This document shows, in pieces, positions 13,315-64,000 of a DNA stretch of 64,000 nt. A model generated the notes under the pieces. It was not told where the DNA came from and made no database searches. It worked only from the letters and a program-made list of their open reading frames with translations. Both the position numbers and the translations under genes were made by a program. The stretch is from an uncultured bacterium (GTDB lineage: Bacteria > Patescibacteriota > Minisyncoccia > Phycocordibacterales > GWA1-40-21), in the NCBI GenBank assembly GCA_903831305.1, contig CAIKXE010000004.1, positions 147,524 to 211,523 on the forward strand. The letters run 5' to 3'. The number at the start of each line of letters is the position of its first letter. The stretch's first letter is position 1.

Positions 13315-13736
13315 TGATTTTAAAAATTAAAAAGTTAAATAGCGAGGCGGTGATGCCCAAGTATGCCACGAGAGGTGATGCGGGGATGGATTTGTTTTGC
13401 TTGGACCGGGTGGTGGTGGCGCCAATGGCACGGGTGCAGGTCAGTACCGGACTAGCCATGGAGATACCGGAGGGTTTTGTGGGACTGATCTGGGATAAAA
13501 GTAGTTTGGCCCATAAGTTTGGGCTAAAGATTCTTGGCGGAGTGATTGATTCTGGCTACCGTGGGGAAATAAAGATCGGTATTATAAATTTAAGTACAGA
13601 GGATTATATTTTTGAAAAGGGACATAAGGTGGCGCAGATGATAATTCAGAAAAAGGAAACGCCGGAGATTGTGGAGGTGACGGATCTCTCAGTGACTGAT
13701 CGTGGTGAGTCTGGTTTTGGTAGTACAGGGAAGTAG
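13314..13736 (+). CDS. dut: dUTP diphosphatase
   Basis: ATRGDAGMDL and GVIDSGYRGEI motifs. Overlaps the glyA stop (ATGA). Confidence 0.9.
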   Translation: MILKIKKLNSEAVMPKYATRGDAGMDLFCLDRVVVAPMARVQVSTGLAMEIPEGFVGLIWDKSSLAHKFGLKILGGVIDSGYRGEIKIGIINLSTEDYIFEKGHKVAQMIIQKKETPEIVEVTDLSVTDRGESGFGSTGK

Positions 13737-13799
13737 GTTTGCTTGCCCGCCCGAAGCTTTCTTAAGCGAAGGAGGGGGAGTACGGGAAAGTAAAATAAA

Positions 13800-13846
13800 A
13801 AAGAGGGCCCCGCTGACAGTAATCTGTCGGCGGGGCCTTTAGGCTT
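13800..13846. terminator. Bidirectional GC-rich hairpin terminator between dut (+) and the NMO gene (-)
   Basis: aaaaagagggccccgctgacagtaatctgtcggcggggccttt. Confidence 0.5.
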
Positions 13847-13860
13847 GGGCTCATATCCTT

Positions 13861-14934
13861 TCAGTTATGAGCGAGTTCTATCATTAGTTCGGAGACGGGG
13901 AGGATCTTGTCCACGCGGTAGGCGTTTGTACCCACGGTGTACATGGCCGGTTCACCGGGAGCAAGGCCTATGGCCGCGCGCAAGGCGTCACAGATGCAGA
14001 AATACTTGCTGTGCTCGGGGTGATTAGGGTGCGCTTTACAGATGGTATAGTGACCCTCCTTGTCCTTGCCCAGGACATAACCCATCCGGCATTTGGGACG
14101 GCGGGTACCAGCTAGTAGCTCCAGGTAAGCAGGTGAACATTTGAGTATCCGGAAAGGGAAACCACAAGGGGAGCTACCCACCGTTATGATATCTTCCTGT
14201 CGGCACTCCACCACCGCGCGTTTGAACTCCGCGGTTGCTGAGCTCTCTTCAGTCGCCAGGAATCTGGTTCCCAGCTGAACCCCGCTCGCTCCAAGTCCAC
14301 GGAACTTCCAGATGTCGGTGTTCGTGTAGATTCCTCCGGCTACTATCACTGGGATATTGCCATTTTTAGTGGCTACTTCCAGTACTTCTGGCAGAAGTTC
14401 TTCAAGCTCGAGCTCAGACTGGCCGATGTCTTCCAGACGAGCACCCAAGTGTCCACCAGCCGCGTTTGGTCCTTCCAGGATTATGACATCCGGTTTCTGG
14501 TGACAGTACCGGAGCATGATCTTGAGACCTCTTGCACTCGAGGTGATCAGTCCAAAAGCGGTGTCCTTAAAAATCGTCCCGCGTTTGGGCACACCAGCTC
14601 CAAAGAAGATCACGGACACTTTGGCATCCAGGGCCGCTGTGACCGTTTCATCATAGCTCTCCGCGAGGATACCCATGACGTTTAGTCCTACACCGTAGCC
14701 GTCAGTCATCGCGGTCGCAATCTCTTCCTGCACGGCTTCATACGTGGTGTATGACCGTCCTTTGGTGATGGTGTAGAAGTCCTTGAGTCCAGCACTAGAT
14801 AGAACCCCTAAGCCACCATTTCTCCAAACCGCGCGCGTCAACCGCGGTCCAGATACACCGGCGCCCATACCTCCTTGGATGATGCAATACGGCCGGACAA
14901 TGTTCCCAAATCTCAATTCAGGAATGGTACCCAT
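13861..14934 (-). CDS. Nitronate monooxygenase / 2-nitropropane dioxygenase (NMO/FabK-like FMN oxidoreductase)
   Basis: N-terminal IIQGGMGAGVSGPRLTRAV and TIM-barrel FMN-binding pattern. The gene is markedly GC-rich relative to the flanks. Confidence 0.8.
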   Translation of the reverse strand: MGTIPELRFGNIVRPYCIIQGGMGAGVSGPRLTRAVWRNGGLGVLSSAGLKDFYTITKGRSYTTYEAVQEEIATAMTDGYGVGLNVMGILAESYDETVTAALDAKVSVIFFGAGVPKRGTIFKDTAFGLITSSARGLKIMLRYCHQKPDVIILEGPNAAGGHLGARLEDIGQSELELEELLPEVLEVATKNGNIPVIVAGGIYTNTDIWKFRGLGASGVQLGTRFLATEESSATAEFKRAVVECRQEDIITVGSSPCGFPFRILKCSPAYLELLAGTRRPKCRMGYVLGKDKEGHYTICKAHPNHPEHSKYFCICDALRAAIGLAPGEPAMYTVGTNAYRVDKILPVSELMIELAHN

Positions 14935-16565: not shown

Positions 16566-16669
16566 AGTAGATAGATAGTTACAAGAAGTTAGTTGGCCGT
16601 AAATGGGCAAACGCTCGTTCGGCTGTCAGTAAGTGCGGAATGTCCATAAAATCGGAAAGGGAAGATGAT

Positions 16670-17143
16670 ATGGCTACTAAAACCGAGCTTGACTATCTCC
16701 GTCTCATTTCAGATGGAGAGGTCGTGATAGGCCCGACTGATGGTGAGAAAACTATCACCCAGGCCTTGAAAGTGGTCAGTTATGTTGATCCCAGCTTCAC
16801 GAACTACATGGATGTCAAGGGTCAGTCGACCCAGAACACCCCGGTCCAGGTCTATGAACTAGTCAGGGAAGGCACAGCTACCCAGATCTTCGAAAGTCTC
16901 GGAGTGGATCTGAACCAACTCTGTCTAACACAGAGTCAGATCATCCAGTTCATGAGAGACGGTCGCGATTGGGTCCTGTATTACGGGGATTCAGTGTCCT
17001 TCCTCTTCAAAGTGAATGACGAGCCCCTCGTCGTTTGCGTGGGCCGGGGCTCTGATGGGCTCGGGGGGTTCGTGTACCATTTATCGAAAGGCGGCGTCCT
17101 GTTAGCTAAGAGCTGGGACCGGTTCGTCGTTCCGCAACTGTGA
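16670..17143 (+). CDS. Hypothetical protein (GC-rich, compositionally foreign)
   Basis: Continuous ORF with the Shine-Dalgarno-like aaagggaag 6 nt upstream of ATG 16670; the listed ORF starts at 16640 in the same frame. No family recognised. GC-rich codon usage unlike neighbours. Confidence 0.4.
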   Translation: MATKTELDYLRLISDGEVVIGPTDGEKTITQALKVVSYVDPSFTNYMDVKGQSTQNTPVQVYELVREGTATQIFESLGVDLNQLCLTQSQIIQFMRDGRDWVLYYGDSVSFLFKVNDEPLVVCVGRGSDGLGGFVYHLSKGGVLLAKSWDRFVVPQL

Positions 17144-17411
17144 CCTCATGGTGGTAATCTCCACCAAAACGCTTTGAAGATATGCGTCTACAACTTCATC
17201 CCTCGCAGGTGCTACTCGGCACTTGCGGGGGATTTTAATTTGCCCAGTGGTCAACGTGGCAGGTTGACCACTTAGGGCTACATTGCGTAGTAGTTCCTAT
17301 ATGCAATTATAATATAACGACCGTGTCCTTATAATTGCATGTTTATATTCAAGCATAGTTAGGTAAGTGGTGTAGGTGGAAAAAAGGGCGGTGGGATGCT
17401 AGTATATACAG

Positions 17412-19160
17412 ATGATTAAAGAGGAGATTATTGATTTAATAAAAAAAGCAGTTTTGGCTCAGGGTATTCCCGAGCAGGACATACCGGCTTTTACCTTGGA
17501 GCATCCAGATGAGATGAGTTATGGGGACCTAGCCAGCAATGTGGCTTTGGTTTTATCCAAGTCACTTAAGAAGTCTCCAGTGGAAGTGGCTAAGCAGGTG
17601 GTGGAGAATTTAAATAAAAATAAACTTGATGCGGTGGAAAAAATAGAAATGGCGGGTCCGGGTTTTATTAATTTCTATTTAGCGGATAAATATTTTGTGG
17701 CTGGGGTAGGGGAGGTTTTAAAAGCGGGTGAAAAGTATGGTACTAATAATAATCTTAAGGGGCAGAAGACGATTGTAGATTACACTGACCCAAATCCCTT
17801 CAAAGATTTTCACATTGGGCACTTAATGAATAATGTAATAGGTGAAGCACTATGCAGAATCATGGAAGGTAATGGCGCCAATGTAAAAAGGGCTAATTAT
17901 CAAGGGGATGTCGGGATTCATGTTGCCAAGACTATCTGGGGGGTATTTAAAATGTTAGGGGATGGAACGGCGAAGAAGGAATTCTTTGGTGGATTATTTG
18001 GCTTTGGTAATAACCCCAAGGTTTGGGGAAGGGCGTATGCTTTAGGTGCTACTACTTTTGACCAAGATGAACAAGCCAAAAAAGAGATTACTGATTTAAA
18101 TAAAAAGATTTATGAAAGATCAGATAGAAAAATTAATAAAATTTATGATTTTGGTAAAAAGATATCACTTCAGGAATTTGAAAAGATATATAAGATTTTA
18201 GGCACTAAATTTGATTACTATTTTTTTGAAAGTGAGGTTGGAAATCTAGGTAAAGAGATTGTTCTTAAAGGTCTTAAAGATGGTATTTTTGAAAAAAGTG
18301 ACGGGGCGACAGTCTTTCATGGAGAAAAGTATGATCCACTTTTGCATACTCGTGTTTTCATCAATTCTCAGAATTTGCCTACCTATGAGGCCAAGGAACT
18401 AGGTTTGATTGTTGAAAAAAATAATAGATTTCCTTTTGATAAGACTATTTCCGTTACGGGAAACGAAATAAACGATTATTATAAAGTTTTACTAAGGGCT
18501 ATGTTTCTTACTGTGCCAGATTTAGCAAAAAAAGTTACTCATATTGGACACGGTATGCTCCGTCTGCCAACTGGAAAAATGTCTTCCCGAACCGGTCAGG
18601 TTATTACTGGAGAATTTTTGCTTTCTGAAATAAAAAATAATGTTTTGGAAAAGATGAAGGATCGACAAATACCAGAGAAAGAGAAATATCTAGTTGCAGA
18701 GATAGTGTCTATTGGAGCTTTAAAATACTCTATTCTTAAGCAAGAAACTGGTAAAGATATTATTTTTGACTTTGATAAATCTCTGTCTTTTGAAGGGGAC
18801 TCGGGACCATATTTGCAATATGCTTGTGTCCGCGCCAAATCCATCTTAGAGAAGGCGGAGAAAGAGGGAATCAAGGCTAATTTAAATCTAGAAAATACCC
18901 CAGTGATTGGTGAATTACCCAAACTCTTGGTTAGATTTCCAGAAGTGGTGGAACGGGCGGGCAAGGAATATTCTCCGCATTATTTAGCCACTTATCTCAC
19001 GGAGCTCGCTTCCGCTTTTAGTACTTTTTATGCGGAGCAGGTGGTGGTGGATAAAAATGATCCCGTCTCACCTTACCGGGTAGCCCTCACCTCCGCTTTC
19101 CTGACCGTAATGAAAAATGGTTTGAACCTCCTGGGCATTAAAGTCCCTGAGCGGATGTAA
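17412..19160 (+). CDS. argS: Arginine--tRNA ligase
   Basis: Class I HIGH motif (DFHIGHLMNNVIGEAL), ArgRS N-terminal add-1 domain and C-terminal DALR-like region ending …PERM. Confidence 0.9.
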   Translation: MIKEEIIDLIKKAVLAQGIPEQDIPAFTLEHPDEMSYGDLASNVALVLSKSLKKSPVEVAKQVVENLNKNKLDAVEKIEMAGPGFINFYLADKYFVAGVGEVLKAGEKYGTNNNLKGQKTIVDYTDPNPFKDFHIGHLMNNVIGEALCRIMEGNGANVKRANYQGDVGIHVAKTIWGVFKMLGDGTAKKEFFGGLFGFGNNPKVWGRAYALGATTFDQDEQAKKEITDLNKKIYERSDRKINKIYDFGKKISLQEFEKIYKILGTKFDYYFFESEVGNLGKEIVLKGLKDGIFEKSDGATVFHGEKYDPLLHTRVFINSQNLPTYEAKELGLIVEKNNRFPFDKTISVTGNEINDYYKVLLRAMFLTVPDLAKKVTHIGHGMLRLPTGKMSSRTGQVITGEFLLSEIKNNVLEKMKDRQIPEKEKYLVAEIVSIGALKYSILKQETGKDIIFDFDKSLSFEGDSGPYLQYACVRAKSILEKAEKEGIKANLNLENTPVIGELPKLLVRFPEVVERAGKEYSPHYLATYLTELASAFSTFYAEQVVVDKNDPVSPYRVALTSAFLTVMKNGLNLLGIKVPERM

Positions 19161-19164
19161 CACA

Positions 19165-19200
19165 AAGGCCTAGCCTTTGAAGGCTAGGCCTTTGTGTTTT
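19165..19200 (+). terminator. Rho-independent terminator after argS
   Basis: cacaaaggcctagcctttgaaggctaggcctttgtgtttt. Confidence 0.5.
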
Positions 19201-19224
19201 GTGCTGGTTATCCACTTTTTTGGT

Positions 19225-19560
19225 TGACAATCTGACCAAAATAAATGATATAATTGTGCCCAGATAGGGTATGATCTTGCTGTTGAGTAGGATCCGATGC
19301 CCGAAGTTAAGAGTGGGGTAGTGAGTGGAGACCCTGGTTATGTTGAACACAAATGGTCGTCTGATGTCGTGGAACGAGTACCAGGAGATGGTGCTCCGGG
19401 TACAGTCCAGACGTCACAGCGCGTGGAGGTGGTACAACGGTTTGCGCCGCTTCGCCGGAAGGAGGAACGGTTGACCGGAAGCTGAGCTTCATCAACCCAC
19501 ATGGGCCGTCTCGAGACTCTCGCAATTCGGCGGGAGGGTAGAGGCGGCTTTCTTTTGCCT
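19225..19560 (+). ncRNA. Candidate structured non-coding RNA / long 5' leader of ileS (identity unresolved)
   Basis: Promoter-like TTGACA(19225)-18 nt-TATAAT(19249). The downstream ~300 nt are strongly GC-enriched against an AT-rich genome, and only short ORFs overlap on both strands. A terminator-like hairpin agaggc…gcctct lies at 19530-19552, ~55 nt before the ileS ATG. Confidence 0.3.
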
Positions 19561-19606
19561 CTTTGACTATAAACTGCTACAATAAAATCTATAATATTAT
19601 AAATAT

Positions 19607-22600
19607 ATGGATAATAAAGACATCACTAGTAAAAGTCTCCGGGCACAAAAAGAAGAGCAAATCCTCAAGTTCTGGCAGGATAATCAGATTTTTGAAAAGT
19701 CTTTGGCCAAGGAAGCCCCCAAAGGTGAATTTGTTTTTTATGATGGGCCACCTTTTGCCACCGGTTTACCGCACTATGGGCACCTGCTAGCCGGGACGAT
19801 CAAAGATTACGTGGGTCGCTACCAGACCATGCGCGGGTATCATGTGCCTAGGCGTTGGGGCTGGGATTGTCATGGTTTGCCCGTGGAAAATATTGTGGAG
19901 AAGGATTTGGGCTTAAAGAGTCGAAAGGATATTGAAGAATACGGTATAGAAAAATTTAATGATAAAGCTAAAGCCTGCGTGCTGACTTATGTGGATGATT
20001 GGAAAAAGATCGTTCCGCGCATGGGGCGCTTTGTGGATATGGAGCATGATTATAAAACCATGGACTCTTCTTTTACAGAGAGCGTCTGGTGGATTTTCCA
20101 TAAATTAAACGAAAAAGGTTTGGTTTATGAAGGTTTCAAGTCTATGCATCTTTGCCCGCGCTGTGAGACCACTTTGTCCAACTTTGAAGTGAATCAGGGT
20201 TATAAGGATATCACGGATATTTCTGTGACGGTGAAATTTGCGGTGGTAGGGGAAGCTGGTACTTTCTTCCTAGCTTGGACCACCACCCCTTGGACCCTAC
20301 CAGGAAACGTCGCTCTTGCTGTTGGTCCGGATGTTGATTATGTCAAAATCAAAGTGATGCCCACCGGGGAGAATTATATTTTGGCCAAGGCTCGGTTAGG
20401 GGTGATTAAAGATGATTACGCTATCGTGGAAGAATTTAAGGGCGAGAAGGTGATCGGTCAGTCTTATAAACCCGTTTTTGATTATTACAATAATAAAGAG
20501 ACCAAGAATATTGCCAATGGTTTCAAAGTTTACGGTGCCAGCTTTGTGACAACTACGGATGGTACCGGTATTGTCCATATTGCGCCGGCTTTTGGTGAGG
20601 ATGATATGAACCTAGGTAAGGAAAATAATCTACCCTTTATCCAGCACGTAGGGACGAACGGGCGGTTCAAACCAGAAGTGACGGATTTTGCTGGTCTTTT
20701 GGTAAAACCAAAAGATGATAAGGAGTCTGGACAGGATCATCAGAGCTCGGATATTTTAGTAATTAAATATTTGGCGGGAAAAGGGACTTTGTTTGCTAAA
20801 GAAAAGTTGATTCACTCTTATCCACATTGCTGGCGTTGTCAAACCCCGCTTTTAAATTATGCTTCTTCCTCCTGGTTTGTGGAAGTAACTAAATTTCGAG
20901 ATGATTTGGTAAAAGCAAATAAAGGGATTAACTGGGTGCCAGTCGATATCAAGGAAGGGCGGTTTGGCAAGTGGCTAGAAGGAGCCCGGGATTGGGCTAT
21001 CTCCCGTTCGCGTTACTGGGGTGCGCCTTTGCCGGTCTGGCGTTGTGATGGCTGTGCCAAGAAAGAATTTATCGGCTCGGTAGAAGATTTAAAAAAGAAA
21101 ACTGGCGGACGAAATAATTTTTATGTCGTACGGCACGGCGAGGCTGATAATAATGTGCTCGGTATTATTAGCTCGGATCCTAAACGGCCGCATCATCTGA
21201 CAGAGAAGGGAATTTTGCAAGTTAAAGAGGAGGCGGAAAAGCTAAGGTCAAAAAAGATTGATTTGATTTATGTTTCACCCTTTGTCCGGACCCAAGAGAC
21301 CGCTAAAATAATTGCTGAAATTTTAAATATTCACCCGGATAAAGTTATTACTGATGATCGTATCCACGAAGTTTATGGTGGCGAGCTTGATGGAAAAACT
21401 GATGCTGAATATCAACGTTTCTTTGGCTCGCGTTTGGAGAAATTTGATAAGACTCCTGTCGGTGGGGAAAATTATACGCAGATAAAAAACCGGATGACAG
21501 AATTTGTCTATGATGCTAATTCTAAAAATAAGGGCAAGAATATTTTAATCATTAGTCATAATACGCCAATCTGGCTCATGTTTGCTGGAATCTTTGGCCT
21601 TGACCCAGCTCAGACCATAGACCTTCGTCGTGAGGCTAGAGATTTTATAAAGAACTCAGAGGTCAAAGAATTACCTTTTGCGCCGATCCCGCATAATCAT
21701 AATTATGAATTGGACTTGCATCGGCCATATATTGATGAGGTGACTTTTGCTTGTCCTTGCGGTGGTACTATGAGGCGGGTACCAGAGGTATTTGACTGTT
21801 GGTTTGAATCCGGCTCCATGCCGTTTGCTCAGGCTCATTATCCGTTTGAAAATCTAGACAAATTTAATCCGCACCCGGGAATGTTTAGAAAGCCGGTAGG
21901 CTTTCCAGCAGAATATATTGGTGAGGGTTTGGATCAGACTCGGGGGTGGTTTTACTCTATGCTGATCTTGTCTGTCGGTTTATTTGGCGAGTCTTCTTAT
22001 AAAAATGTTATTGTAAATGGGATTATCTTGGCTGAGGATGGGCAAAAGATGTCCAAAAGTTTGAAGAATTATCCGGATCCGATGATTTTGGTGGACAAAT
22101 ACGGCGCTGATGCCTTGAGGTATTATCTGTTATCTTCACCGGTAGTCCGGGCGGAGGATCTATGCTTCTCGGAAGCGGGGGTGGATGAAGTGATGAAGAA
22201 GATTTTGACTAGGTTAGACAATGTCTTTTCTTTCTATGAGATGTATAGTAAAGAGTCCTCGGTGCCGGTTAGAAACTTTGTGCCAGAGTCAGAAAATATT
22301 TTGGATCAGTGGATCCTTATTAGATTAAAGGAACTTATTATTGCTGTGACTGGTGCCTCTGATAAATATGAGATGGACCGGGCGGTTCGGCCAGTGATGG
22401 ATTTTGTGGATGATTTGTCCACTTGGTATTTGCGTCGTTCCCGTGACCGCTTTAAATCTGCTAATCAAAAGGATAAAGTCCAGGCTATCCAGTCTACTCG
22501 TTTTGTCTTGGAGGAATTGACAAAAGTGATTGCCCCGGTGATGCCTTTTTATGCTGATGAACTTTACCAAAAAGTAAAATCTTTTGAGGGTAAAGAGAGT

Positions 22601-23140
22601 GTGCATTTATCAGCTTGGCCAGAGGTGGTTAAACTGACTAAAGTGGATGAAGCGGTAAAGATTAGCATGGAGGAGGTTAGAAAAATTGTTTCCTTGGGCC
22701 TTGAAGCCCGAGCTAAATCAAATATTAAAGTCCGTCAGCCCCTTGCCAGCCTTAAGGTTAAAGAGGGTAAGGTGATTTTGTCAGATTTGTATTTAAGTCT
22801 GATCCAGGATGAAATAAATGTAAAGAAAGTGATTTTTGATAAGACTATTATTGAGGCCGTGGAGCTTGATCTGGTCATTACGCCCGAGCTTAAGGAGGAG
22901 GGGGCGGTACGCGAGCTTACTCGAGCTATTCAGGAACTGCGCAAGCAAGAAAAGCTGTCTCCGACGGATTTTGCGAGTTTGAAAATTAAGACGGATGAGC
23001 GCGGTAAAAAGCTCGTCCAAAAGTTTGAAGCGGAAATAAAGAAAACCACCTTGATCAAGATTATTTCTTTTGAGGAGTTTGACGTGGAGTCAGTGACGGT
23101 GGTAGATGATTTGTCTTTTGGTCTAAAAATAAACCGATGA
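19607..23140 (+). CDS. ileS: Isoleucine--tRNA ligase (type 2, eukaryote-like) carrying an in-frame histidine-phosphatase (PGM-family) domain insertion
   Basis: HIGH motif PHYGHLLAG, KMSKS motif KMSKSLKN, CP1 editing domain, Zn-ribbon CPRCETT / WRCDGC / CPCGG. Residues ~500-690 (nt ~21100-21690) contain VVRHGEADNN…ISHNTPIW, a histidine phosphatase superfamily fold, not IleS. Confidence 0.9.
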   Translation: MDNKDITSKSLRAQKEEQILKFWQDNQIFEKSLAKEAPKGEFVFYDGPPFATGLPHYGHLLAGTIKDYVGRYQTMRGYHVPRRWGWDCHGLPVENIVEKDLGLKSRKDIEEYGIEKFNDKAKACVLTYVDDWKKIVPRMGRFVDMEHDYKTMDSSFTESVWWIFHKLNEKGLVYEGFKSMHLCPRCETTLSNFEVNQGYKDITDISVTVKFAVVGEAGTFFLAWTTTPWTLPGNVALAVGPDVDYVKIKVMPTGENYILAKARLGVIKDDYAIVEEFKGEKVIGQSYKPVFDYYNNKETKNIANGFKVYGASFVTTTDGTGIVHIAPAFGEDDMNLGKENNLPFIQHVGTNGRFKPEVTDFAGLLVKPKDDKESGQDHQSSDILVIKYLAGKGTLFAKEKLIHSYPHCWRCQTPLLNYASSSWFVEVTKFRDDLVKANKGINWVPVDIKEGRFGKWLEGARDWAISRSRYWGAPLPVWRCDGCAKKEFIGSVEDLKKKTGGRNNFYVVRHGEADNNVLGIISSDPKRPHHLTEKGILQVKEEAEKLRSKKIDLIYVSPFVRTQETAKIIAEILNIHPDKVITDDRIHEVYGGELDGKTDAEYQRFFGSRLEKFDKTPVGGENYTQIKNRMTEFVYDANSKNKGKNILIISHNTPIWLMFAGIFGLDPAQTIDLRREARDFIKNSEVKELPFAPIPHNHNYELDLHRPYIDEVTFACPCGGTMRRVPEVFDCWFESGSMPFAQAHYPFENLDKFNPHPGMFRKPVGFPAEYIGEGLDQTRGWFYSMLILSVGLFGESSYKNVIVNGIILAEDGQKMSKSLKNYPDPMILVDKYGADALRYYLLSSPVVRAEDLCFSEAGVDEVMKKILTRLDNVFSFYEMYSKESSVPVRNFVPESENILDQWILIRLKELIIAVTGASDKYEMDRAVRPVMDFVDDLSTWYLRRSRDRFKSANQKDKVQAIQSTRFVLEELTKVIAPVMPFYADELYQKVKSFEGKESVHLSAWPEVVKLTKVDEAVKISMEEVRKIVSLGLEARAKSNIKVRQPLASLKVKEGKVILSDLYLSLIQDEINVKKVIFDKTIIEAVELDLVITPELKEEGAVRELTRAIQELRKQEKLSPTDFASLKIKTDERGKKLVQKFEAEIKKTTLIKIISFEEFDVESVTVVDDLSFGLKINR

Positions 23141-23727
23141 AGAAAAAAGTGATTTTTGTGCACGGTTATGGTCTAGCCGCCCCACTTGAGACAGAAGACT
23201 GGCCAGGCACACTTGGCTGTGAACTAAAAAAGCAAGGTTTCGATTTTCAGCTTTTACTGATGCCTGAGGCGGCCTATCCGGCTATCTCCGAATGGCTGAT
23301 TTTTTTAGTTAAGCAAAATATAAAAGTAAACGAAAATACTTATTTTGTCGGGCACAGCCTGGGTTGTATCACTATCGCTCGTTTTTTGGAAAAACTACCT
23401 GAGGGTGTTATGGCTGGGGGGTGTGTTTTTGTTTCAGGATTTTGTTCATTGCCACAAATACCGCTACTCAAAGAATTTTGTAATTTACCCCTAGATTTTT
23501 CTGAGGTTAAGAGGCACTCGCGAGATTTTGCTGTCGTGGTCTCTGATAATGATCACATTATTCCGTTGGTCCGTAGTCAAGAACTAGCCGAGAGACTTGG
23601 AGCTAGAGTAATAGTAGAACGTAATATGGGGCATTTTATTTCTGGGGTTAAGGAGGTTCCGAGTGTTTTAAATACTATTTTAGAAATGGCACAAATGACG
23701 GAGGAACGTAAAGAAATGAAAAACTAG
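23137..23727 (+). CDS. Alpha/beta hydrolase, YdeN/RBBP9-like serine hydrolase
   Basis: GHSLG nucleophile elbow (VGHSLGCITIARF), ~190 aa. Overlaps the ileS stop by 4 nt. Confidence 0.6.
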   Translation: MKKKVIFVHGYGLAAPLETEDWPGTLGCELKKQGFDFQLLLMPEAAYPAISEWLIFLVKQNIKVNENTYFVGHSLGCITIARFLEKLPEGVMAGGCVFVSGFCSLPQIPLLKEFCNLPLDFSEVKRHSRDFAVVVSDNDHIIPLVRSQELAERLGARVIVERNMGHFISGVKEVPSVLNTILEMAQMTEERKEMKN

Positions 23728-23742
23728 GTCACTAGCTGTATT

Positions 23743-24348
23743 ATGTCACATACCATATATACAACTGAAGGGTTTATTCTTAAAAGCGTAAATTTTGGCG
23801 AGGCTAATAAGTATTTTTTTATTTTTACTAAGGAGTTTGGTTTGATCCGGGCGGCGGCTCAGAGTGTGAGACATCTAAAATCCAAATTACGTTATGGGTT
23901 AGAGGATCTTTCTTTAAGCCAGATTTCCGTGGTGCGGGGAAGAGAAGTTTGGCGCTTAACCAGCGCGGAAAAAAAGCTTGGCTTGGCGGAGAAGGAAAGG
24001 TTACTGATGTGGTCACAGATTTTTTCTTTGTTACTGCGCCTCCTTCATGGTGAGGAGAAGAATGACGCCCTTTTTAGTATTTTAAAGGAGGGTATGTTTT
24101 TTCTAAATACTCTTGATGACGTCGGGGGTGAAAAAAAGCAAAAGGAGAGAGCCGGGCTACTGGCAAGCTTTGAATGTATTATAGCTCTGCGGATTTTGTC
24201 TGTCCTTGGCTATATTGGTCAGTTAGGAGACTTTGATCAGTTCACTCTTTCACCATATTTTACGCCGGAGCTTATTTTAAACATGAGTGCTCTTAGGTCT
24301 AGGGCGATTGGGGAGATAAATAAGTCACTAAAAGAAACACATTTATAG
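23743..24348 (+). CDS. recO: DNA repair protein RecO-like
   Basis: N-terminal OB-fold pattern typical of RecO (TEGFILKSVNFGEANKYFFIFTKEFGLIRAAAQSVRHLKSKLRYGLE). Shorter than canonical RecO. Confidence 0.55.
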   Translation: MSHTIYTTEGFILKSVNFGEANKYFFIFTKEFGLIRAAAQSVRHLKSKLRYGLEDLSLSQISVVRGREVWRLTSAEKKLGLAEKERLLMWSQIFSLLLRLLHGEEKNDALFSILKEGMFFLNTLDDVGGEKKQKERAGLLASFECIIALRILSVLGYIGQLGDFDQFTLSPYFTPELILNMSALRSRAIGEINKSLKETHL

Positions 24349-31750: not shown

Positions 31751-32563
31751 ATGAAATATATTGATATTCACTCGCATTTGGGCTTTGAAGACTATGGTCC
31801 GGATCAAAAGGGGGTAATTGCCAGGATGAAAGAATCTGGAGTGGGGACTATTGCTGTAGGGGCGGATTTGGCCAGCTCAATTGAAGCCATTAAAGTAGCC
31901 GAGGAGAATGAAAATGTCTGGGCGTGCATTGGCCAGCACCCAACCCATAATGTCTCGAAAACGGACTTTCACCATGGTGAAAGTTCTGAAGTAAGCCATG
32001 GCTTACTTGGGTTTGATGAAGTGGAGTTTGAAAAGCTGGTAAAAAATCCTAAAGTGGTGGCGATCGGGGAATGTGGTTTGGAATATTATAAGTTGGAAGG
32101 GGATATTGAGAAAATAAAAGTCAAACAAAAAGCAGATTTTATTAAGCAAATAAAATTTGCGATTAAATATGATAAGCCACTAATGCTTCATATTCGTGAC
32201 GCTTTTGATGATGCTTATGATATTTTGAAAGAGTATCAGGGACAAGTGAGAGGGGATGTACATTTCTTCACCGGCAAGCTTCCTCAGGCTTTGAAATTCA
32301 TTGAACTTGGTTTTACTATCTCTTTTACTGGTCTTATCACCTATGTCCAGGACTTTGATAAAATTATTAAAAACGTGCCCTTGGAGGCCCTCCAGGCGGA
32401 GACGGATGCCCCTTACGTGGCCCCGGTGCCTCACCGTGGCACGCGTAATGAGCCGGCGTATGTTATACCAGTTTACCAAAAAATCGCCGAAATCCGGGGT
32501 GAAGAACCCGAAAAAGTCCGCCTCCAGCTCCTCGAGAATGCTAAAAGGCTGTTTGGAGTTTAA
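31751..32563 (+). CDS. tatD: TatD-family metal-dependent hydrolase/DNase
   Basis: IDIHSHLGFEDY N-terminus, GECGLEYY and HxRDA pattern. Confidence 0.85.
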   Translation: MKYIDIHSHLGFEDYGPDQKGVIARMKESGVGTIAVGADLASSIEAIKVAEENENVWACIGQHPTHNVSKTDFHHGESSEVSHGLLGFDEVEFEKLVKNPKVVAIGECGLEYYKLEGDIEKIKVKQKADFIKQIKFAIKYDKPLMLHIRDAFDDAYDILKEYQGQVRGDVHFFTGKLPQALKFIELGFTISFTGLITYVQDFDKIIKNVPLEALQAETDAPYVAPVPHRGTRNEPAYVIPVYQKIAEIRGEEPEKVRLQLLENAKRLFGV

Positions 32564-32634
32564 TCTTTTCTTCTTGACCAATATTTATATTAGTATATTC
32601 TTGACGTAGATTCAGTTCCAAATCACCAATAGCT

Positions 32635-33035
32635 AGGGGAGAAACACTCATGAGTCGTCGTCGTTGGTCTTATCGCCCAAGTATGCTTCGGCGGGAAGTG
32701 AAGGTCGATTCGCACGGTTTGTTCATTCACTATGGCGGATTCCGATACCGTCCACAAGGGGAGACAAAGGCGACGCCCACGGCACATGTTTTGCTCCACA
32801 GTCCCTTTCGCCGGGAGGATAATCTCGCCGTGGTGTCTATCGGTGGGAAGAACGAAACCTGGAAACAAGGAGGGACACCAAGAAATGAAGTGCCGTTTTT
32901 TAGCAAACGGATCCGTCTCACTGATCACTGTGCAGGCACTCGTCCTGACTTTGGTGATGTCATCATGGTGACACTTGTCAAACACTAGCTCGCGCGCACC
33001 GTTCTCCCGGGTTGGGGAATGGTGCGTTTTGTTTG
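32635..33035 (+). ncRNA. GC-rich ~400-nt non-coding-looking block upstream of rpsF; candidate structured RNA or foreign remnant (identity unresolved)
   Basis: Abrupt GC enrichment, only short mutually overlapping ORFs in several frames on both strands with implausible proteins. A terminal hairpin gcacc…cccgggttgggg…ggtgc is followed by GTTTTGTTTG at 32996-33035. Promoter-like TTGACC/TTGACG lie at 32574/32601. Confidence 0.3.
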
Positions 33036-34383: not shown

Positions 34384-34537
34384 CTTCAAATAAAAACACT
34401 CAAGGAGTATTCTCGGCACTCCTTGGGTGTTTTTAAATATATTTTACTTCTTCGCCAGATAAAGTGTGCGGAGCACTTCCACTAAATCCCCACCTTTTCT
34501 AAGGCGGGGTGGCCTTCCTAGGCCGGGGCGGTGAGCG

Positions 34538-35122
34538 CTACTTTTTAGCGCGTTCTACGTACTCACCCGTTTGAGTATTGACCACCACGGTATCATTTTC
34601 ACTGACAAAGAGGGGAGCCATGATGATGGCGCCGGTTTCCAAGGTGATTTGCTTACTACCACCGGTGGCGGTGTCACCCTTCAGGGCAGGTGGGGCATCA
34701 GTCACTTTTAATTCTACTTTGATAGGTAACTTAGTTCCAATCATCATCCCTTCCTCCTCATCATCGGCGGTAAAGACTAATACTTCCGCAATGGAGTTTG
34801 GCTTGAGGAACTTGGCTTGATAACCAATCAGATTTTCGTCAATCTTAAATCTTTTGGCTGGATCCTTGGGGTCGGCAAACCAAAACTCACCTTTGTTGGT
34901 ATATAAAAACTTGGCTTCTTTGGTGGTAATATCCGCCTCTTCTACCTTTTCTGCCTGGTGAAAGCTCTGCTCGGTGATTTTACCAGTAATCATATTGCGC
35001 AGTTTGGTAGCATTTACCGGTTTACGCATCTGCTTTCTAAAGACATGAGAAGACAGCACCTCATAAGGCTCATTATTAAAGATAATATACTTTCGCTCCA
35101 CGATTTCACTGTATTCAAGCAT
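34538..35122 (-). CDS. efp: Elongation factor P
   Basis: Three OB/KOW-like domains. The N-terminus is EF-P-like. Confidence 0.9.
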   Translation of the reverse strand: MLEYSEIVERKYIIFNNEPYEVLSSHVFRKQMRKPVNATKLRNMITGKITEQSFHQAEKVEEADITTKEAKFLYTNKGEFWFADPKDPAKRFKIDENLIGYQAKFLKPNSIAEVLVFTADDEEEGMMIGTKLPIKVELKVTDAPPALKGDTATGGSKQITLETGAIIMAPLFVSENDTVVVNTQTGEYVERAKK

Positions 35123-63553: not shown

Positions 63554-64000
63554 ATGGGTTTATATGTGGAACTGCAAGGACGGGTAATCAAGGCGTTGTT
63601 CAACCTGGTGAAGACGGAGCCGGATTATCTCCGGGGGATGGTGAAAGGATACCGCGGGTTTCCTTTTGTTGGTCTCAGTGAGGGTGACTATCGCAAGATG
63701 CGTCATCATGGCTTCCGGGAGCCGAGTTTCAAGGACTGGCCCTGGTGCACGGAGATGGTGAAGATCATCCTGGAGCAAGTGGATGACAGTGGGACAGAAA
63801 TCGTCATCCGGAACCAGCTGGGAATGAGACTCTTGGGCTACGGTACCACTCAGACCAGCGAGGAGCACGAGAAGACGGCGTCCTTGGGGATCTGTTTTCT
63901 CCGGACGCCAGTGGTCGCTCAACCGGGCGCCCTCAAGGTGGGGGATACCCTGGCGACGGGAGAGAGGATTCTCTCTGAACCCCGTTGCAGTGATGATGGC
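63554..64000 (+). CDS. Hypothetical protein, 5' partial view (runs off window end); GC-rich, compositionally foreign
   Basis: Open frame from ATG 63554 to the window end with no stop (MGLYVELQGRVIKALFNLVKTEPDYLRGMVKGYRGFPFVGLSEGDYRKMRHHGF…). GC-rich third positions, unlike the host. Confidence 0.35.
   Translation, partial: MGLYVELQGRVIKALFNLVKTEPDYLRGMVKGYRGFPFVGLSEGDYRKMRHHGFREPSFKDWPWCTEMVKIILEQVDDSGTEIVIRNQLGMRLLGYGTTQTSEEHEKTASLGICFLRTPVVAQPGALKVGDTLATGERILSEPRCSDDG

What the first reader, a model, noticed from the sequence alone, without database searches (positions are those of the whole stretch)
21100..21690. Isoleucyl-tRNA synthetase with an intact histidine-phosphatase (PGM-family) domain inserted in-frame
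Within the single 1177-aa ileS ORF, residues ~500-690 interrupt the IleS catalytic body. They sit between the WRCDGC zinc knuckle and the …CPCGG…VFDCWFESGSMP segment that precedes KMSKS. The insert carries the catalytic hallmarks of the histidine phosphatase superfamily: RHGE (VVRHGEADNN), downstream Arg/Glu positions and the second catalytic His in ISHNTPIW. There are no intein boundary motifs and no frame shift. The IleS HIGH, KMSKS and CP1 editing elements appear intact, so this looks like a functional two-enzyme fusion. I do not recognise a phosphatase domain in this position of any described IleS. It could act on a phosphorylated tRNA end, a nucleotide, or a phosphorylated cofactor; this is speculative.
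Basis: partly seen in the sequence, partly recalled or inferred. Interest (0 to 1): 0.85.

Follow-up and report, generated by a model that had tools for sequence, protein, structure and literature searches.

The report
Phosphatase enzyme nested inside isoleucyl-tRNA synthetase
An essential protein-synthesis enzyme (isoleucyl-tRNA synthetase) of a large group of ultra-small Patescibacteria carries a complete, apparently active phosphatase enzyme spliced into one of its surface loops, an unreported arrangement that sister lineages encode as two neighbouring genes, which suggests the two enzymes work as partners.

Summary
ORF 19607-23140 (+, 1177 aa) is a type-2 IleRS (TIGR00392, 891 bits against a cutoff of 621). 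A complete branch-1 histidine phosphatase (Pfam His_Phos_1, E = 2e-32; aa 504-690, nt 21116-21676) sits in frame in the CP3 zinc-knuckle loop.

It is not a chimera:
- All 120 closest homologs carry the insert.
- 119 of the 120 IleS-flanked cluster representatives have it at the same site, down to about 31% insert identity.
- The best 80 loci of a species-level genome scan, all Patescibacteria, carry it.

All catalytic residues (R509, H510, N516, R561, E588, H651) and the IleRS synthetic and editing motifs are conserved. The insert folds confidently (pLDDT 92) like small-molecule phosphatases (PspA, PhoE, CobC).

New here: the closest free-standing relatives are genes lying between argS and an insert-less ileS in the sister Staskawiczbacteria clade, in the same synteny block. 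Other lineages carry further intact copies in other IleS loops.

Best reading: a genuine bifunctional enzyme whose phosphatase came from the neighbouring gene and is kept tethered to IleRS. The substrate is unknown. I found no description in the literature searched. New variant of a known kind; interest 0.7.

The parts
19607..23140 (+). ileS ORF, 1177 aa: type-2 (eukaryote-like) IleRS with a nested phosphatase
   Evidence: ORF. TIGR00392 scores 890.7 bits against a cutoff of 621.4; best PDB matches are IleRS2 8c8u (E = 1e-225), yeast, Candida and T. thermophilus IleRS.
19772..19783 (+). HIGH-type signature (HYGH, aa 56-59)
   Evidence: translation. In A2, P55, H56 and G58 are invariant and H59 is at least 90% conserved.
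20279..20605 (+). CP1 editing-site motifs TTTPWTLP (aa 225-232) and GTGIVHIAPAFGEDD (aa 319-333)
   Evidence: Both motifs are invariant or nearly invariant in 48 homologs.
21038..21055 (+). First half of the CP3 zinc knuckle (WRCDGC; C480, C483)
   Evidence: C480 and C483 invariant. CP3 assignment from the alignment to 6ldk and 8c8u and the domain boundaries in PMC7191050.
21101..21115 (+). Entry linker TGGRN (aa 499-503) between the CP3 helix and phosphatase strand beta-1
   Evidence: Secondary structure. Its length is conserved across deeply divergent representatives.
21116..21676 (+). Complete branch-1 histidine-phosphatase domain (aa 504-690)
   Evidence: His_Phos_1 E = 2e-32. AF2 pLDDT 92. 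Foldseek matches to PspA, PhoE, CobC and GpgP with TM about 0.7-0.78; free-standing homologs begin and end at these same boundaries.
21131..21139 (+). RHG motif: R509, nucleophile H510, G511 (N516 at 21152-21154)
   Evidence: Invariant in 114 homologs and in every extra copy and free-standing relative examined.
21287..21289 (+). R561, second phosphate-binding arginine
   Evidence: 100% conserved in 111 nested representatives and in 6 of 6 adjacent-gene forms.
21368..21370 (+). E588, general acid/base
   Evidence: Invariant in 114 homologs; 95% conserved in 111 representatives.
21557..21559 (+). H651, second catalytic histidine
   Evidence: Invariant in 114 homologs; 99% conserved in 111 representatives.
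21677..21715 (+). Return segment FAPIPHNHNYELD (aa 691-703) leading back into CP3
   Evidence: P695, H696, E701 and D703 are invariant in A2. Length and a P-x-N/D motif are kept in deep representatives. The segment is absent from the free-standing proteins.
21716..21760 (+). Second half of CP3: LHRPYID...C716-P-C718
   Evidence: Aligns to ELHKPYVDD...CPVC of 8c8u. C716 is invariant and C718 at least 90% conserved.
21800..21814 (+). WFESG ATP/ribose-binding motif (aa 732-736)
   Evidence: In A2, W732, E734, S735 and G736 are invariant and F733 is at least 90% conserved.
22046..22060 (+). KMSKS signature (aa 814-818)
   Evidence: K814, M815 and K817 are invariant.
22304..23134 (+). Anticodon-binding domain (aa 900-1046) and type-2 C-terminal domain DUF5915 (aa 1085-1176)
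   Evidence: Anticodon_1 E = 3e-32, DUF5915 E = 1e-14.
17412..19160 (+). argS, the upstream member of the conserved argS-(phosphatase)-ileS-recO block
   Evidence: Arg_tRNA_synt_N, tRNA-synt_1d, DALR_1. Synteny.

Best explanation
The ORF is the organism's housekeeping type-2 isoleucyl-tRNA synthetase. A whole histidine phosphatase of about 187 aa, of the PhoE/PspA/CobC type, is nested in the CP3 zinc-knuckle loop on short, length-conserved linkers.

It is a true bifunctional enzyme with two separate active sites. The IleRS part activates isoleucine, edits, and charges tRNA-Ile as usual. The phosphatase part hydrolyses a phosphomonoester by the standard superfamily chemistry: the phosphoryl group is transferred to H510, R509, R561 and N516 hold the phosphate, E588 protonates the leaving group, and H651 assists.

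The nested domain is the counterpart of a free-standing phosphatase gene. In the sister Staskawiczbacteria clade that gene sits tightly packed between argS and an insert-less ileS. The partner gene was therefore moved into ileS early in a large Paceibacteria radiation and has been inherited vertically since.

I infer that physical tethering of this phosphatase to IleRS is itself under selection. The tethering gives 1:1 co-production and proximity. I also infer that the substrate is a small or nucleotide-sized phosphomonoester rather than a folded protein.

Sub-claim likelihoods:
- architecture real: 0.97
- IleRS active: 0.9
- phosphatase catalytically active: 0.85
- origin from, or orthology with, the neighbouring gene: 0.75
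- tethering selected: 0.55
- substrate small or nucleotide-sized: 0.7
- substrate belongs directly to the IleRS reaction cycle: 0.3
For: SHOWN
- Domain identity and boundaries.
- All catalytic residues are invariant in 114 homologs and conserved in 111 representatives at 50% identity.
- IleRS synthetic and editing motifs are invariant.
- The fold is confident, with small-molecule phosphatases as nearest structures. In the full-length model the insert is the best-predicted region.
- 120 of 120 nearest homologs carry the insert.
- Among the 150 best His_Phos relatives in 1.84 billion proteins, 120 have IleS flanks and 119 of those are at this same site.
- The best 80 GTDB species loci all carry it, and all are Patescibacteria.
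- The three best-scoring free-standing relatives (P0217, P0227, P0252; 37-38% identical) all abut an insert-less ileS.
- 5 of 6 Staskawiczbacteria-type loci have argS-HisPhos-ileS, and the genes are tightly packed: in L091 the argS stop overlaps the phosphatase start.
- None of the 80 nested loci keeps a separate copy within 10 kb, so the two states are complementary.
- Other lineages hold additional catalytically intact copies in three other IleS loops. P0220 has two copies and none at CP3, and occurs in 6 near-identical members on contigs up to 1.06 Mb. P0206 and P0198 are further examples.
- Junction lengths are conserved down to 42% core identity.

INFERRED
- The direction of the event (neighbour gene to nested domain).
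- Selection for tethering.
- The substrate class. This rests on the PhoE/PspA-like cap of about 45 residues, which the solved protein phosphatases of the family lack; that contrast is my own knowledge.
Against: - No biochemical data exist.
- The whole argS-ileS-recO-DUF11 block is syntenic, and recO has no functional tie to ileS. Adjacency may therefore be inherited gene order rather than functional coupling.
- One Staskawiczbacteria locus (L090) has no phosphatase gene at this position.
- Beyond the generic catalytic core, no surface or cap residues are conserved across the deep nested family. Nothing points to one fixed, IleRS-specific substrate or interface.
- The nested domains are near-neutral (median pI 6.6). 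That gives no sign of an RNA-binding surface.
- The IleS-core tree is star-like at depth and unrooted by an outgroup, so the direction of the event is unresolved.
- Inter-domain geometry could not be examined, because no coordinates or PAE were returned. The full-length pTM is only 0.70.
- Whether the genome has a second IleRS could not be tested.
Confidence: 0.6

Rival explanations
1. Neutral hitch-hiker. The phosphatase is an ordinary housekeeping metabolic phosphatase with no functional relation to IleRS. Because its gene lay next to ileS, a local duplication or deletion nested it into the permissive CP3 loop. Purifying selection then acts only on its independent function, and IleRS is merely a carrier.
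For: - Nearest sequence and structure relatives are metabolic small-molecule phosphatases.
- Only the generic catalytic core is conserved across the family.
- The surrounding gene order is conserved for unrelated genes as well.
- CP3 is structurally variable among IleRSs (PMC7191050).
- One IleS (P0173) also holds an IS200-like transposase domain and a GNAT domain, which shows that IleS loops tolerate foreign domains.
- One sister-clade locus lacks the neighbouring gene.
Against: - His_Phos domains occur at four or more different IleS loops, in lineages whose copies are only 23-35% identical. That includes a lineage without argS/recO synteny.
- No relative among the best 150 is nested in argS, the gene's other neighbour, or in any other protein.
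- Linker lengths are conserved over deep divergence.
- The GNAT and transposase inserts are a singleton, not a family.
Confidence: 0.3
2. The phosphatase takes part directly in the IleRS reaction cycle. It could remove a blocking 3'-phosphate or pyrophosphate from the CCA end of tRNA-Ile. It could dephosphorylate the synthetase itself, for example a kinase-toxin-modified KMSKS serine. Or it could remove AMP or PPi product at the active site.
For: - Rosetta-stone fusion plus a conserved neighbour gene.
- Repeated insertions into the catalytic half of IleRS.
- Tight, conserved tethering to CP3, which adjoins the second half of the Rossmann fold.
- From my own knowledge: HipA-type kinases inactivate class I synthetases at the KMSKS-type loop, and toxSAS enzymes pyrophosphorylate tRNA CCA ends, so substrates of this kind exist in bacteria.
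Against: - No histidine-phosphatase-superfamily enzyme acting on tRNA or on an aaRS was found in the literature searched.
- The domain resembles capped small-molecule enzymes, not SixA (TIGR00249 scores 42-45 bits against a cutoff of 74.5 and covers only the first ~70 residues).
- There is no basic surface.
- Nothing explains why only IleRS would need this.
- Geometry relative to the active site is untested.
Confidence: 0.25
3. The insert is the cell's glycolytic cofactor-dependent phosphoglycerate mutase, or another named equivalog such as phosphoserine phosphatase PspA or alpha-ribazole phosphatase CobC, fused to IleRS for genome economy.
For: The best NCBIfam match for the insert is archaeal dPGM NF038349 (99-105 bits). 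PspA and CobC follow. PspA is the top structural match.
Against: Every one of these scores lies far below its curated cutoff:
- dPGM_arch 105 against 225
- pgm_1 21 against 81.7
- PspA 73 against 350
- CobC 65 against 162.9

Identity to the solved enzymes is only 20-27%. The cap that sets specificity is not conserved within the family.
Confidence: 0.08
4. The insert is not a working enzyme: a non-catalytic structural or ligand-sensing module, or an artefact (assembly chimera, intein or other mobile insertion removed after translation).
For: None specific. GC3 of the insert (0.364) is somewhat lower than that of the flanking ileS (0.455).
Against: - Catalytic residues are invariant across hundreds of lineages. 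This is not expected for a purely structural spacer.
- The identical protein is on 10 contigs and the architecture is in 119 representatives.
- There is no frame break.
- There is no intein-type Cys/Ser/Thr...His-Asn-Cys/Ser/Thr boundary. The residue after the conserved H696-N697 is H/R/K/E/D.
- The free-standing homologs are ordinary single-domain enzymes.
Confidence: 0.03

Closest known systems
Type-2 (eukaryote/archaea-like) bacterial IleRS, e.g. Priestia megaterium IleRS2 (PDB 8c8u) and Thermus thermophilus IleRS (1ile)
   Same: Full-length collinear match outside the insert (E = 1e-225 and 3e-210). Shares HIGH-type, KMSKS and WFxSG motifs, the CP1 editing domain, the anticodon domain and the DUF5915 C-terminus. 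The CP3 subdomain carries a Cys4-type zinc motif, as in T. thermophilus (PMC7191050).
   Different: About 200 extra residues forming a complete second enzyme replace a CP3 loop of about 5 residues (query 498-699 against chain 477-483). NCBI's pipeline names the fused proteins only 'class I tRNA ligase family protein', whereas it names the insert-less sister-clade proteins 'isoleucine--tRNA ligase'.
Small branch-1 histidine phosphatases: H. thermophilus phosphoserine phosphatase PspA (4ij5), B. stearothermophilus PhoE (1h2e), alpha-ribazole phosphatase CobC (6nru), M. tuberculosis GpgP (4pz9), riboflavin-pathway HFP (9mmh)
   Same: Same fold (Foldseek E = 1e-12 to 3e-14, TM 0.7-0.78). Same catalytic set R-H-G...N...R...E...H, and a similar size of about 190-210 aa with a short cap.
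   Different: Only 20-27% identical. Falls below every curated family cutoff. Embedded inside another enzyme rather than free-standing. Substrate unknown.
Free-standing His_Phos genes between argS and ileS in Candidatus Staskawiczbacteria (P0227, P0252, and the L091-L093 neighbours)
   Same: Closest free-standing relatives of the insert (37-38% identity). Same start and end points as the nested domain. Same argS...ileS-recO synteny block.
   Different: Separate polypeptide, with an insert-less ileS of 963-1018 aa. Isoelectric point is very variable (4.8-10.1).
Rv2228c-type bifunctional RNase H / acid phosphatase (NCBIfam NF005567) and PFKFB kinase/bisphosphatase
   Same: Precedents for a branch-1 histidine-phosphatase domain joined to another enzyme, in the first case one that acts on nucleic acid. 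NF005567 matches the insert at 68-72 bits.
   Different: Those are end-to-end fusions, whereas this one is nested inside the partner's catalytic domain. The score is far below the cutoff of 326. The partner here is an aminoacyl-tRNA synthetase.
IleRS with an added N-acetyltransferase domain (NCBIfam NF040702 'ileS_w_GNAT')
   Same: Another curated case of IleRS carrying an extra enzyme domain. One IleS here (P0173) combines His_Phos with a GNAT domain.
   Different: The window protein scores 296 bits against a cutoff of 1999 and has no GNAT domain. The P0173 GNAT insert is a singleton.

Membership tests
Isoleucine--tRNA ligase (TIGR00392; class Ia, type 2) | Whole-protein score above the curated equivalog cutoff | tested here: met
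   890.7 bits against a cutoff of 621.4, in two stretches flanking the insert.
Isoleucine--tRNA ligase (TIGR00392; class Ia, type 2) | HIGH and KMSKS signatures, WFxSG motif, CP1 editing motifs | tested here: met
   HYGH 56-59, KMSKS 814-818, WFESG 732-736, TTTPWTLP 225-232 and GTGIVHIAPAFGEDD 319-333 are present and conserved in 48 homologs.
Isoleucine--tRNA ligase (TIGR00392; class Ia, type 2) | Aminoacylation of tRNA-Ile, and being the sole IleRS of the genome | not testable with these tools
   Needs an enzyme assay or a complete genome. Only 64 kb of the contig is visible.
Histidine phosphatase superfamily, branch 1 (Pfam PF00300) | Profile match above the gathering score | tested here: met
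   112.9 bits (117.1 for the insert alone) against a cutoff of 21.7; E = 2e-32 and 1e-33.
Histidine phosphatase superfamily, branch 1 (Pfam PF00300) | Catalytic RHG histidine, two arginines, glutamate proton donor, second histidine | tested here: met
   R509, H510, R561, E588 and H651 (plus N516) are invariant in 114 homologs and present in all extra copies and free relatives.
Histidine phosphatase superfamily, branch 1 (Pfam PF00300) | Alpha/beta fold of the superfamily | tested here: met
   AF2 pLDDT 92. Foldseek probability 1.00 to PspA, PhoE, CobC and dPGM structures.
Histidine phosphatase superfamily, branch 1 (Pfam PF00300) | Phosphomonoesterase or mutase activity through a phosphohistidine intermediate | not testable with these tools
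   Requires biochemistry.
Cofactor-dependent phosphoglycerate mutase (TIGR01258 pgm_1; NF038349 dPGM_arch) | Score above the curated cutoff | tested here: not met
   pgm_1 scores 21.2 against 81.7; dPGM_arch scores 99-105 against 225.
Phosphoserine phosphatase PspA (NF045917), alpha-ribazole phosphatase CobC (TIGR03162), SixA (TIGR00249) | Score above the curated cutoff | tested here: not met
   PspA 69-73 against 350; CobC 60-65 against 162.9; SixA 42-45 against 74.5, with only the first ~70 residues aligned.
Mupirocin-resistant IleRS MupA/MupB (NF000257/NF000258) | Score above the curated cutoff | tested here: not met
   749-754 bits against a cutoff of 1900. This is general type-2 IleRS similarity only.
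IleRS with GNAT domain (NF040702) | Score above the cutoff and presence of an acetyltransferase domain | tested here: not met
   295.8 bits against 1999. No GNAT Pfam hit.
Intein | N-terminal Cys/Ser/Thr and C-terminal His-Asn followed by Cys/Ser/Thr; Hint-fold blocks | tested here: not met
   The insert starts T-G-G-R-N. The conserved H696-N697 is followed by H/R/K/E/D in homologs. The only Pfam hit in the insert is His_Phos_1.

The most novel reading that the evidence does not exclude
The nested phosphatase is a new kind of synthetase-embedded repair or proofreading module acting on the IleRS cycle itself. One version: it strips a blocking 3'-phosphate or pyrophosphate from the CCA end of tRNA-Ile before charging, countering RNase or toxSAS-type damage. 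Another version: it removes inhibitory phosphorylation from the synthetase's own KMSKS region, countering HipA-type kinases. Either would explain why lineages keep one to four intact copies tethered to the catalytic half of IleRS, or encode the enzyme as the gene immediately upstream of ileS.
Probability: 0.22. Interest if true: 0.9.

Novelty: new variant of a known kind. Interest (0 to 1): 0.7.

Why it matters
Aminoacyl-tRNA synthetases are among the most conserved enzymes known. Their accessory domains (editing, tRNA-binding, complex-forming) have each revealed a layer of translational quality control or regulation.

Here a second, catalytically intact enzyme of an unrelated superfamily is built into the catalytic domain of an essential synthetase across a large radiation of Patescibacteria. 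It is the neighbouring gene in a sister clade and recurs at other IleS loops elsewhere. That pattern (gene neighbour, nested fusion, repeated insertion) is the classic comparative-genomics signature of a functional partnership. No phosphatase partner of an aaRS turned up in the literature searched.

If the phosphatase acts on tRNA-Ile, on IleRS or on its products, it would define a new type of aaRS-linked activity. If it is an independent metabolic enzyme, the case is still a clear natural example of a neighbouring gene relocating into an internal loop of the next gene. It would also show that CP3 can accept a whole enzyme, which is useful for aaRS engineering.

There is a practical consequence too: NCBI's annotation pipeline downgrades these proteins to 'class I tRNA ligase family protein'. 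That could affect completeness and metabolic calls for these genomes.

Tried and rejected
- Assembly chimera or frameshift: rejected.
- Intein or mobile insertion: rejected. There are no boundary motifs and the only domain hit is His_Phos_1.
- The 446-nt argS-ileS spacer as a decayed remnant of the free-standing phosphatase gene: rejected. tblastn gives no hit better than E = 0.18, and the spacer is not conserved in relatives.
- Known RNA family in that spacer or anywhere in the window: none. No tRNA genes in the window.
- A family of IleS with a GNAT insert in these lineages: the search with the P0173 GNAT segment found only matches to the IleS flank, so that insert is a singleton.
- IleS fragments with other domains (P0503 5'-nucleotidase, P0433 peptidase S66, P0435 GDC-P): these are partial domains joined to truncated IleS on contigs of about 1 kb. 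I judged them assembly chimeras and gave them no weight.
- Tandem 2x His_Phos proteins (P0267, P0223): 25-30% identical to the insert and, where the context is readable (P0267), not near ileS. P0223's contig is too short and unannotated to tell. A different subfamily.
- P0264 and P0258 free-standing relatives: unrelated or uninformative contexts.
- Rooting the IleS tree to get the direction of the event: the NJ tree is star-like at depth and has no outgroup, so this is unresolved.
- Literature: five full-text searches found no description of IleRS with a histidine phosphatase, IleRS with GNAT, CPR aaRS insertions of this kind, or a histidine-phosphatase-superfamily enzyme acting on tRNA.
- Inter-domain geometry could not be analysed because the models return no coordinates.


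Full report
**1. The observation**

The window holds one uninterrupted ORF, 19607-23140 on the + strand, of 1177 aa.

| Element | Residues |
|---|---|
| HYGH | 56-59 |
| WRCDGC | 478-483 |
| VVRHGEADNN | 507-516 |
| ISHNTPIW | 649-656 |
| CPCGG | 716-720 |
| VFDCWFESGSMP | 728-739 |
| KMSKS | 814-818 |

Pfam splits the class I synthetase core (tRNA-synt_1, E = 1.3e-134) around a His_Phos_1 match of E = 2e-32 (aa 506-671, profile positions 2-167 of 194). The insert scanned alone gives E = 1e-33. NCBIfam calls the protein isoleucine--tRNA ligase at 890.7 bits against a cutoff of 621.4.

Against the solved P. megaterium IleRS2 (8c8u), query residue 498 aligns to chain residue 477 and query 699 to chain 483. 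About 200 residues therefore replace a loop of about five residues.

The correct numbering of the catalytic set is R509-H510-G511, N516, R561, E588 and H651. The flanking zinc-knuckle cysteines are C480/C483 and C716/C718.

**2. Where in IleRS it sits**

Alignment to the Candida (6ldk) and Thermus IleRS structures can be read against the domain boundaries published for them (PMC7191050). That places the site in the CP3 subdomain. CP3 links CP2 to the second half of the Rossmann fold, differs in topology between IleRSs, and binds zinc in T. thermophilus.

The phosphatase is entered through a 5-residue linker (TGGRN) after the CP3 helix SVEDLKKK. It is left through FAPIPHNHNYELD, which leads back to the IleRS motif LHRPYID.

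**3. It is real, old and widespread**

- The identical protein is recorded on 10 contigs, the longest 216,961 bp. All 120 best homologs (59-100% identity, about 1160-1210 aa) carry PF00300.
- I searched the insert alone against one representative per 50%-identity cluster of 15 billion proteins. That gave 86 representatives at E <= 1e-30 and 1195 at E <= 1e-10.
- Of the best 150, 120 have IleS flanks. 119 of these carry the domain at this same CP3 site, and 31 are full length.
- In these representatives the IleS core is 42-64% identical to the query and the insert 31-41%. The junction lengths are nevertheless preserved.
The query included IleS flanks, so not all of these need carry the insert. 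The best 80 all span the insert and all come from Patescibacteria: Paceibacterota, Taylorbacteria, Lloydbacteria, Nomurabacteria and Parcubacteria.
- GC content of the insert (0.40) matches the window (0.40). Its GC3 is somewhat lower than that of the flanking ileS (0.364 against 0.455).

**4. Both enzymes look functional**

In 114 full-length homologs R509, H510, G511, N516, R561, E588 and H651 are invariant. The insert is about as conserved as the anticodon-binding domain (mean column conservation 0.72 against 0.73).

In 48 aligned homologs the IleRS HYGH, KMSKS, WFESG and DQTRGWF motifs are conserved, as are the CP1 editing motifs TTTPWTLP and GTGxVHxAPxFGxDD.

The insert modelled alone gives pLDDT 92 and pTM 0.89. 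In the full-length model (pLDDT 80, pTM 0.70) the insert is the most confident region, at 85-95. The weak segments are the usual mobile IleRS loops, including KMSKS.

The nearest solved structures are small-molecule phosphatases: PspA phosphoserine phosphatase, a riboflavin-pathway HFP, mycobacterial hydrolases, PhoE, GpgP, CobC and TIGAR. They match at TM 0.7-0.78 and 20-27% identity, ahead of the true mutases.

The insert reaches none of the curated equivalog cutoffs (dPGM, PspA, CobC, SixA). It is a member of the superfamily but of no characterised family.

**5. The new finding: a two-gene counterpart**

The three best-scoring free-standing relatives of the insert all abut an insert-less ileS:

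- P0227 (195 aa, 38% identical) and P0252 (187 aa, 37%) lie in argS - phosphatase - ileS (984 and 991 aa) - small ORF - recO. The phosphatase stop falls 1-5 nt before the ileS start.
- P0217 (38%) lies argS - phosphatase, tail-to-tail with an insert-less ileS.

This is the same synteny as the window: argS 17412-19160, ileS, recO-like 23743-24348, a DUF11 protein, then a class II aaRS. It is also the synteny of nearly all 80 nested loci.

The insert-less ileS belongs to a large clade labelled Candidatus Staskawiczbacteria (120 relatives, none with PF00300). Of six loci examined in that clade, five carry the adjacent phosphatase gene and one (L090) does not.

None of the 80 nested loci keeps a separate copy nearby, so the two states are complementary.

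The free-standing proteins start just before the RHG strand. They end at ...GEVREL, which aligns exactly to the insert's last strand ...SEVKEL. What sits in CP3 is therefore an entire phosphatase.

A neighbour-joining tree of the IleS core puts the two adjacent-gene IleS together and apart from the nested forms. The tree is star-like and has no outgroup, so the direction (neighbour gene to nested domain) is an inference.

**6. Further insertions elsewhere in IleS**

- P0220 (1419 aa, complete IleS) has no copy at CP3 but has two copies at other loops, after query residues ~742 and ~882. The architecture occurs in six near-identical members on contigs up to 1.06 Mb, and in a different gene neighbourhood.
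- P0206 has copies at CP3 and at ~750.
- P0198 has one copy after ~429 and three in tandem at CP3.
- All these copies keep R509, H510, R561, E588 and H651, apart from P0198's fourth copy, which runs off the end of its contig. Yet they are only 23-35% identical to one another.
- P0173 combines the CP3 phosphatase with an IS200-like transposase domain inside CP1 and a GNAT domain. It is a single-contig oddity with no family behind it.

**7. What it most likely is and does**

*Shown:* a conserved bifunctional architecture with two intact active sites, and orthology-level similarity to an ileS-adjacent gene.

*Inferred:*
- The phosphatase works by the standard phospho-histidine mechanism.
- Its substrate is small or nucleotide-sized. 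The domain has the short cap of PhoE/PspA-type enzymes rather than the open site of the protein phosphatases in the family (own knowledge).
- Tethering to IleRS is itself selected. Three observations support this: the neighbour/nested complementarity, at least four independent insertion sites all in IleS and none in argS or any other protein, and the conserved short linkers.

*Against a specific IleRS-linked chemistry:*
- Across 111 nested representatives only the generic catalytic core is conserved at >= 80%, and the cap is not.
- The domains are near-neutral (median pI 6.6).
- The synteny block also includes unrelated genes such as recO.
- One sister-clade locus lacks the gene.

I therefore rate 'real, active, derived from or orthologous with the neighbour gene' as highly likely. 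I give selected physical partnership about 0.55, a neutral hitch-hiker about 0.3, and direct participation in the IleRS cycle about 0.2-0.3. That last case would cover tRNA 3'-end phosphate removal, dephosphorylation of IleRS, or product removal. It is a subset of the selected-partnership reading, not an addition to it.

**8. Comparison with what is known**

The host is an ordinary type-2 IleRS. The guest is an ordinary branch-1 histidine phosphatase. The combination and its nested geometry are not described in any paper I could find.

Precedents exist for histidine-phosphatase domains fused end-to-end to other enzymes (Rv2228c-type RNase H/acid phosphatase, PFKFB). NCBIfam also holds a model for an IleRS with an added GNAT domain (NF040702).

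The sequences themselves are public. NCBI annotates the fused proteins only as 'class I tRNA ligase family protein' and JGI as 'isoleucyl-tRNA synthetase'.

I class the finding as a new variant of a known kind, with interest 0.7.

Noticed in passing
window 19161-19606 (core 19261-19570): The argS-ileS spacer holds a terminator hairpin (19163-19200) and a TTGACA...TATAAT promoter-like pair (~19224-19252). A GC-rich stretch of about 310 nt follows (0.56 against a window mean of 0.40), ending in a hairpin plus a T-run just before ileS. It folds better than shuffles (z = -3.06), matches no Rfam family, is single-copy in the window, and is not conserved in the spacers of related loci. It may be a lineage-specific leader or ncRNA.
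   Followed up: partly
window 23137-23727: A 196-aa serine hydrolase (Pfam PF06821 Ser_hydrolase, E = 6e-16) starts 4 nt inside the ileS stop (ATGA overlap), so it is probably translationally coupled to ileS. It was detected in only two related loci (L001, L004).
   Followed up: partly
P0173 (JGI contig, 11,293 bp), aa 340-461 and 935-1063: An IleS that carries the CP3 phosphatase also has an IS200-like Y1 transposase domain in frame inside the CP1 editing domain, and a GNAT acetyltransferase after the WFESG region. It is a single contig, and no relatives with the GNAT insert were found.
   Followed up: partly
P0220 / L085:6001-10260; P0198; P0206: These IleS genes carry two to four divergent but catalytically intact histidine-phosphatase domains in loops other than, or in addition to, CP3. 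P0220 is on contigs up to 1.06 Mb, in a neighbourhood without argS or recO.
   Followed up: partly
L087:2682-5609 (- strand): The insert-less ileS next to free-standing phosphatase P0217 is called as two ORFs (412 + 554 aa) 24 nt apart, and its sequence contains ambiguous bases. It could be a sequencing error or a genuinely split ileS.
   Followed up: no
window 13341-14909, 16900-17238, 32374-32884, 34486-34708, 63574-64000: Further islands of more than 55% GC in a window averaging 40% GC. Some overlap ORFs with no Pfam hit (for example 16640-17143). There is no Rfam or tRNA match.
   Followed up: no
L081/L086 IleS, region aligned to window aa 728-736: The Staskawiczbacteria-type insert-less IleS has DVGNPWLDA where the nested clade and IleRS2 have EVFDCWFES. 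This is a marked divergence in the ATP/ribose-binding motif of the sister clade.
   Followed up: no
Annotation of homologs: NCBI's pipeline names the fused proteins 'class I tRNA ligase family protein' but the insert-less sister-clade proteins 'isoleucine--tRNA ligase'. The insert apparently pushes them below the naming rule, which could make IleRS appear missing in these genomes.
   Followed up: no
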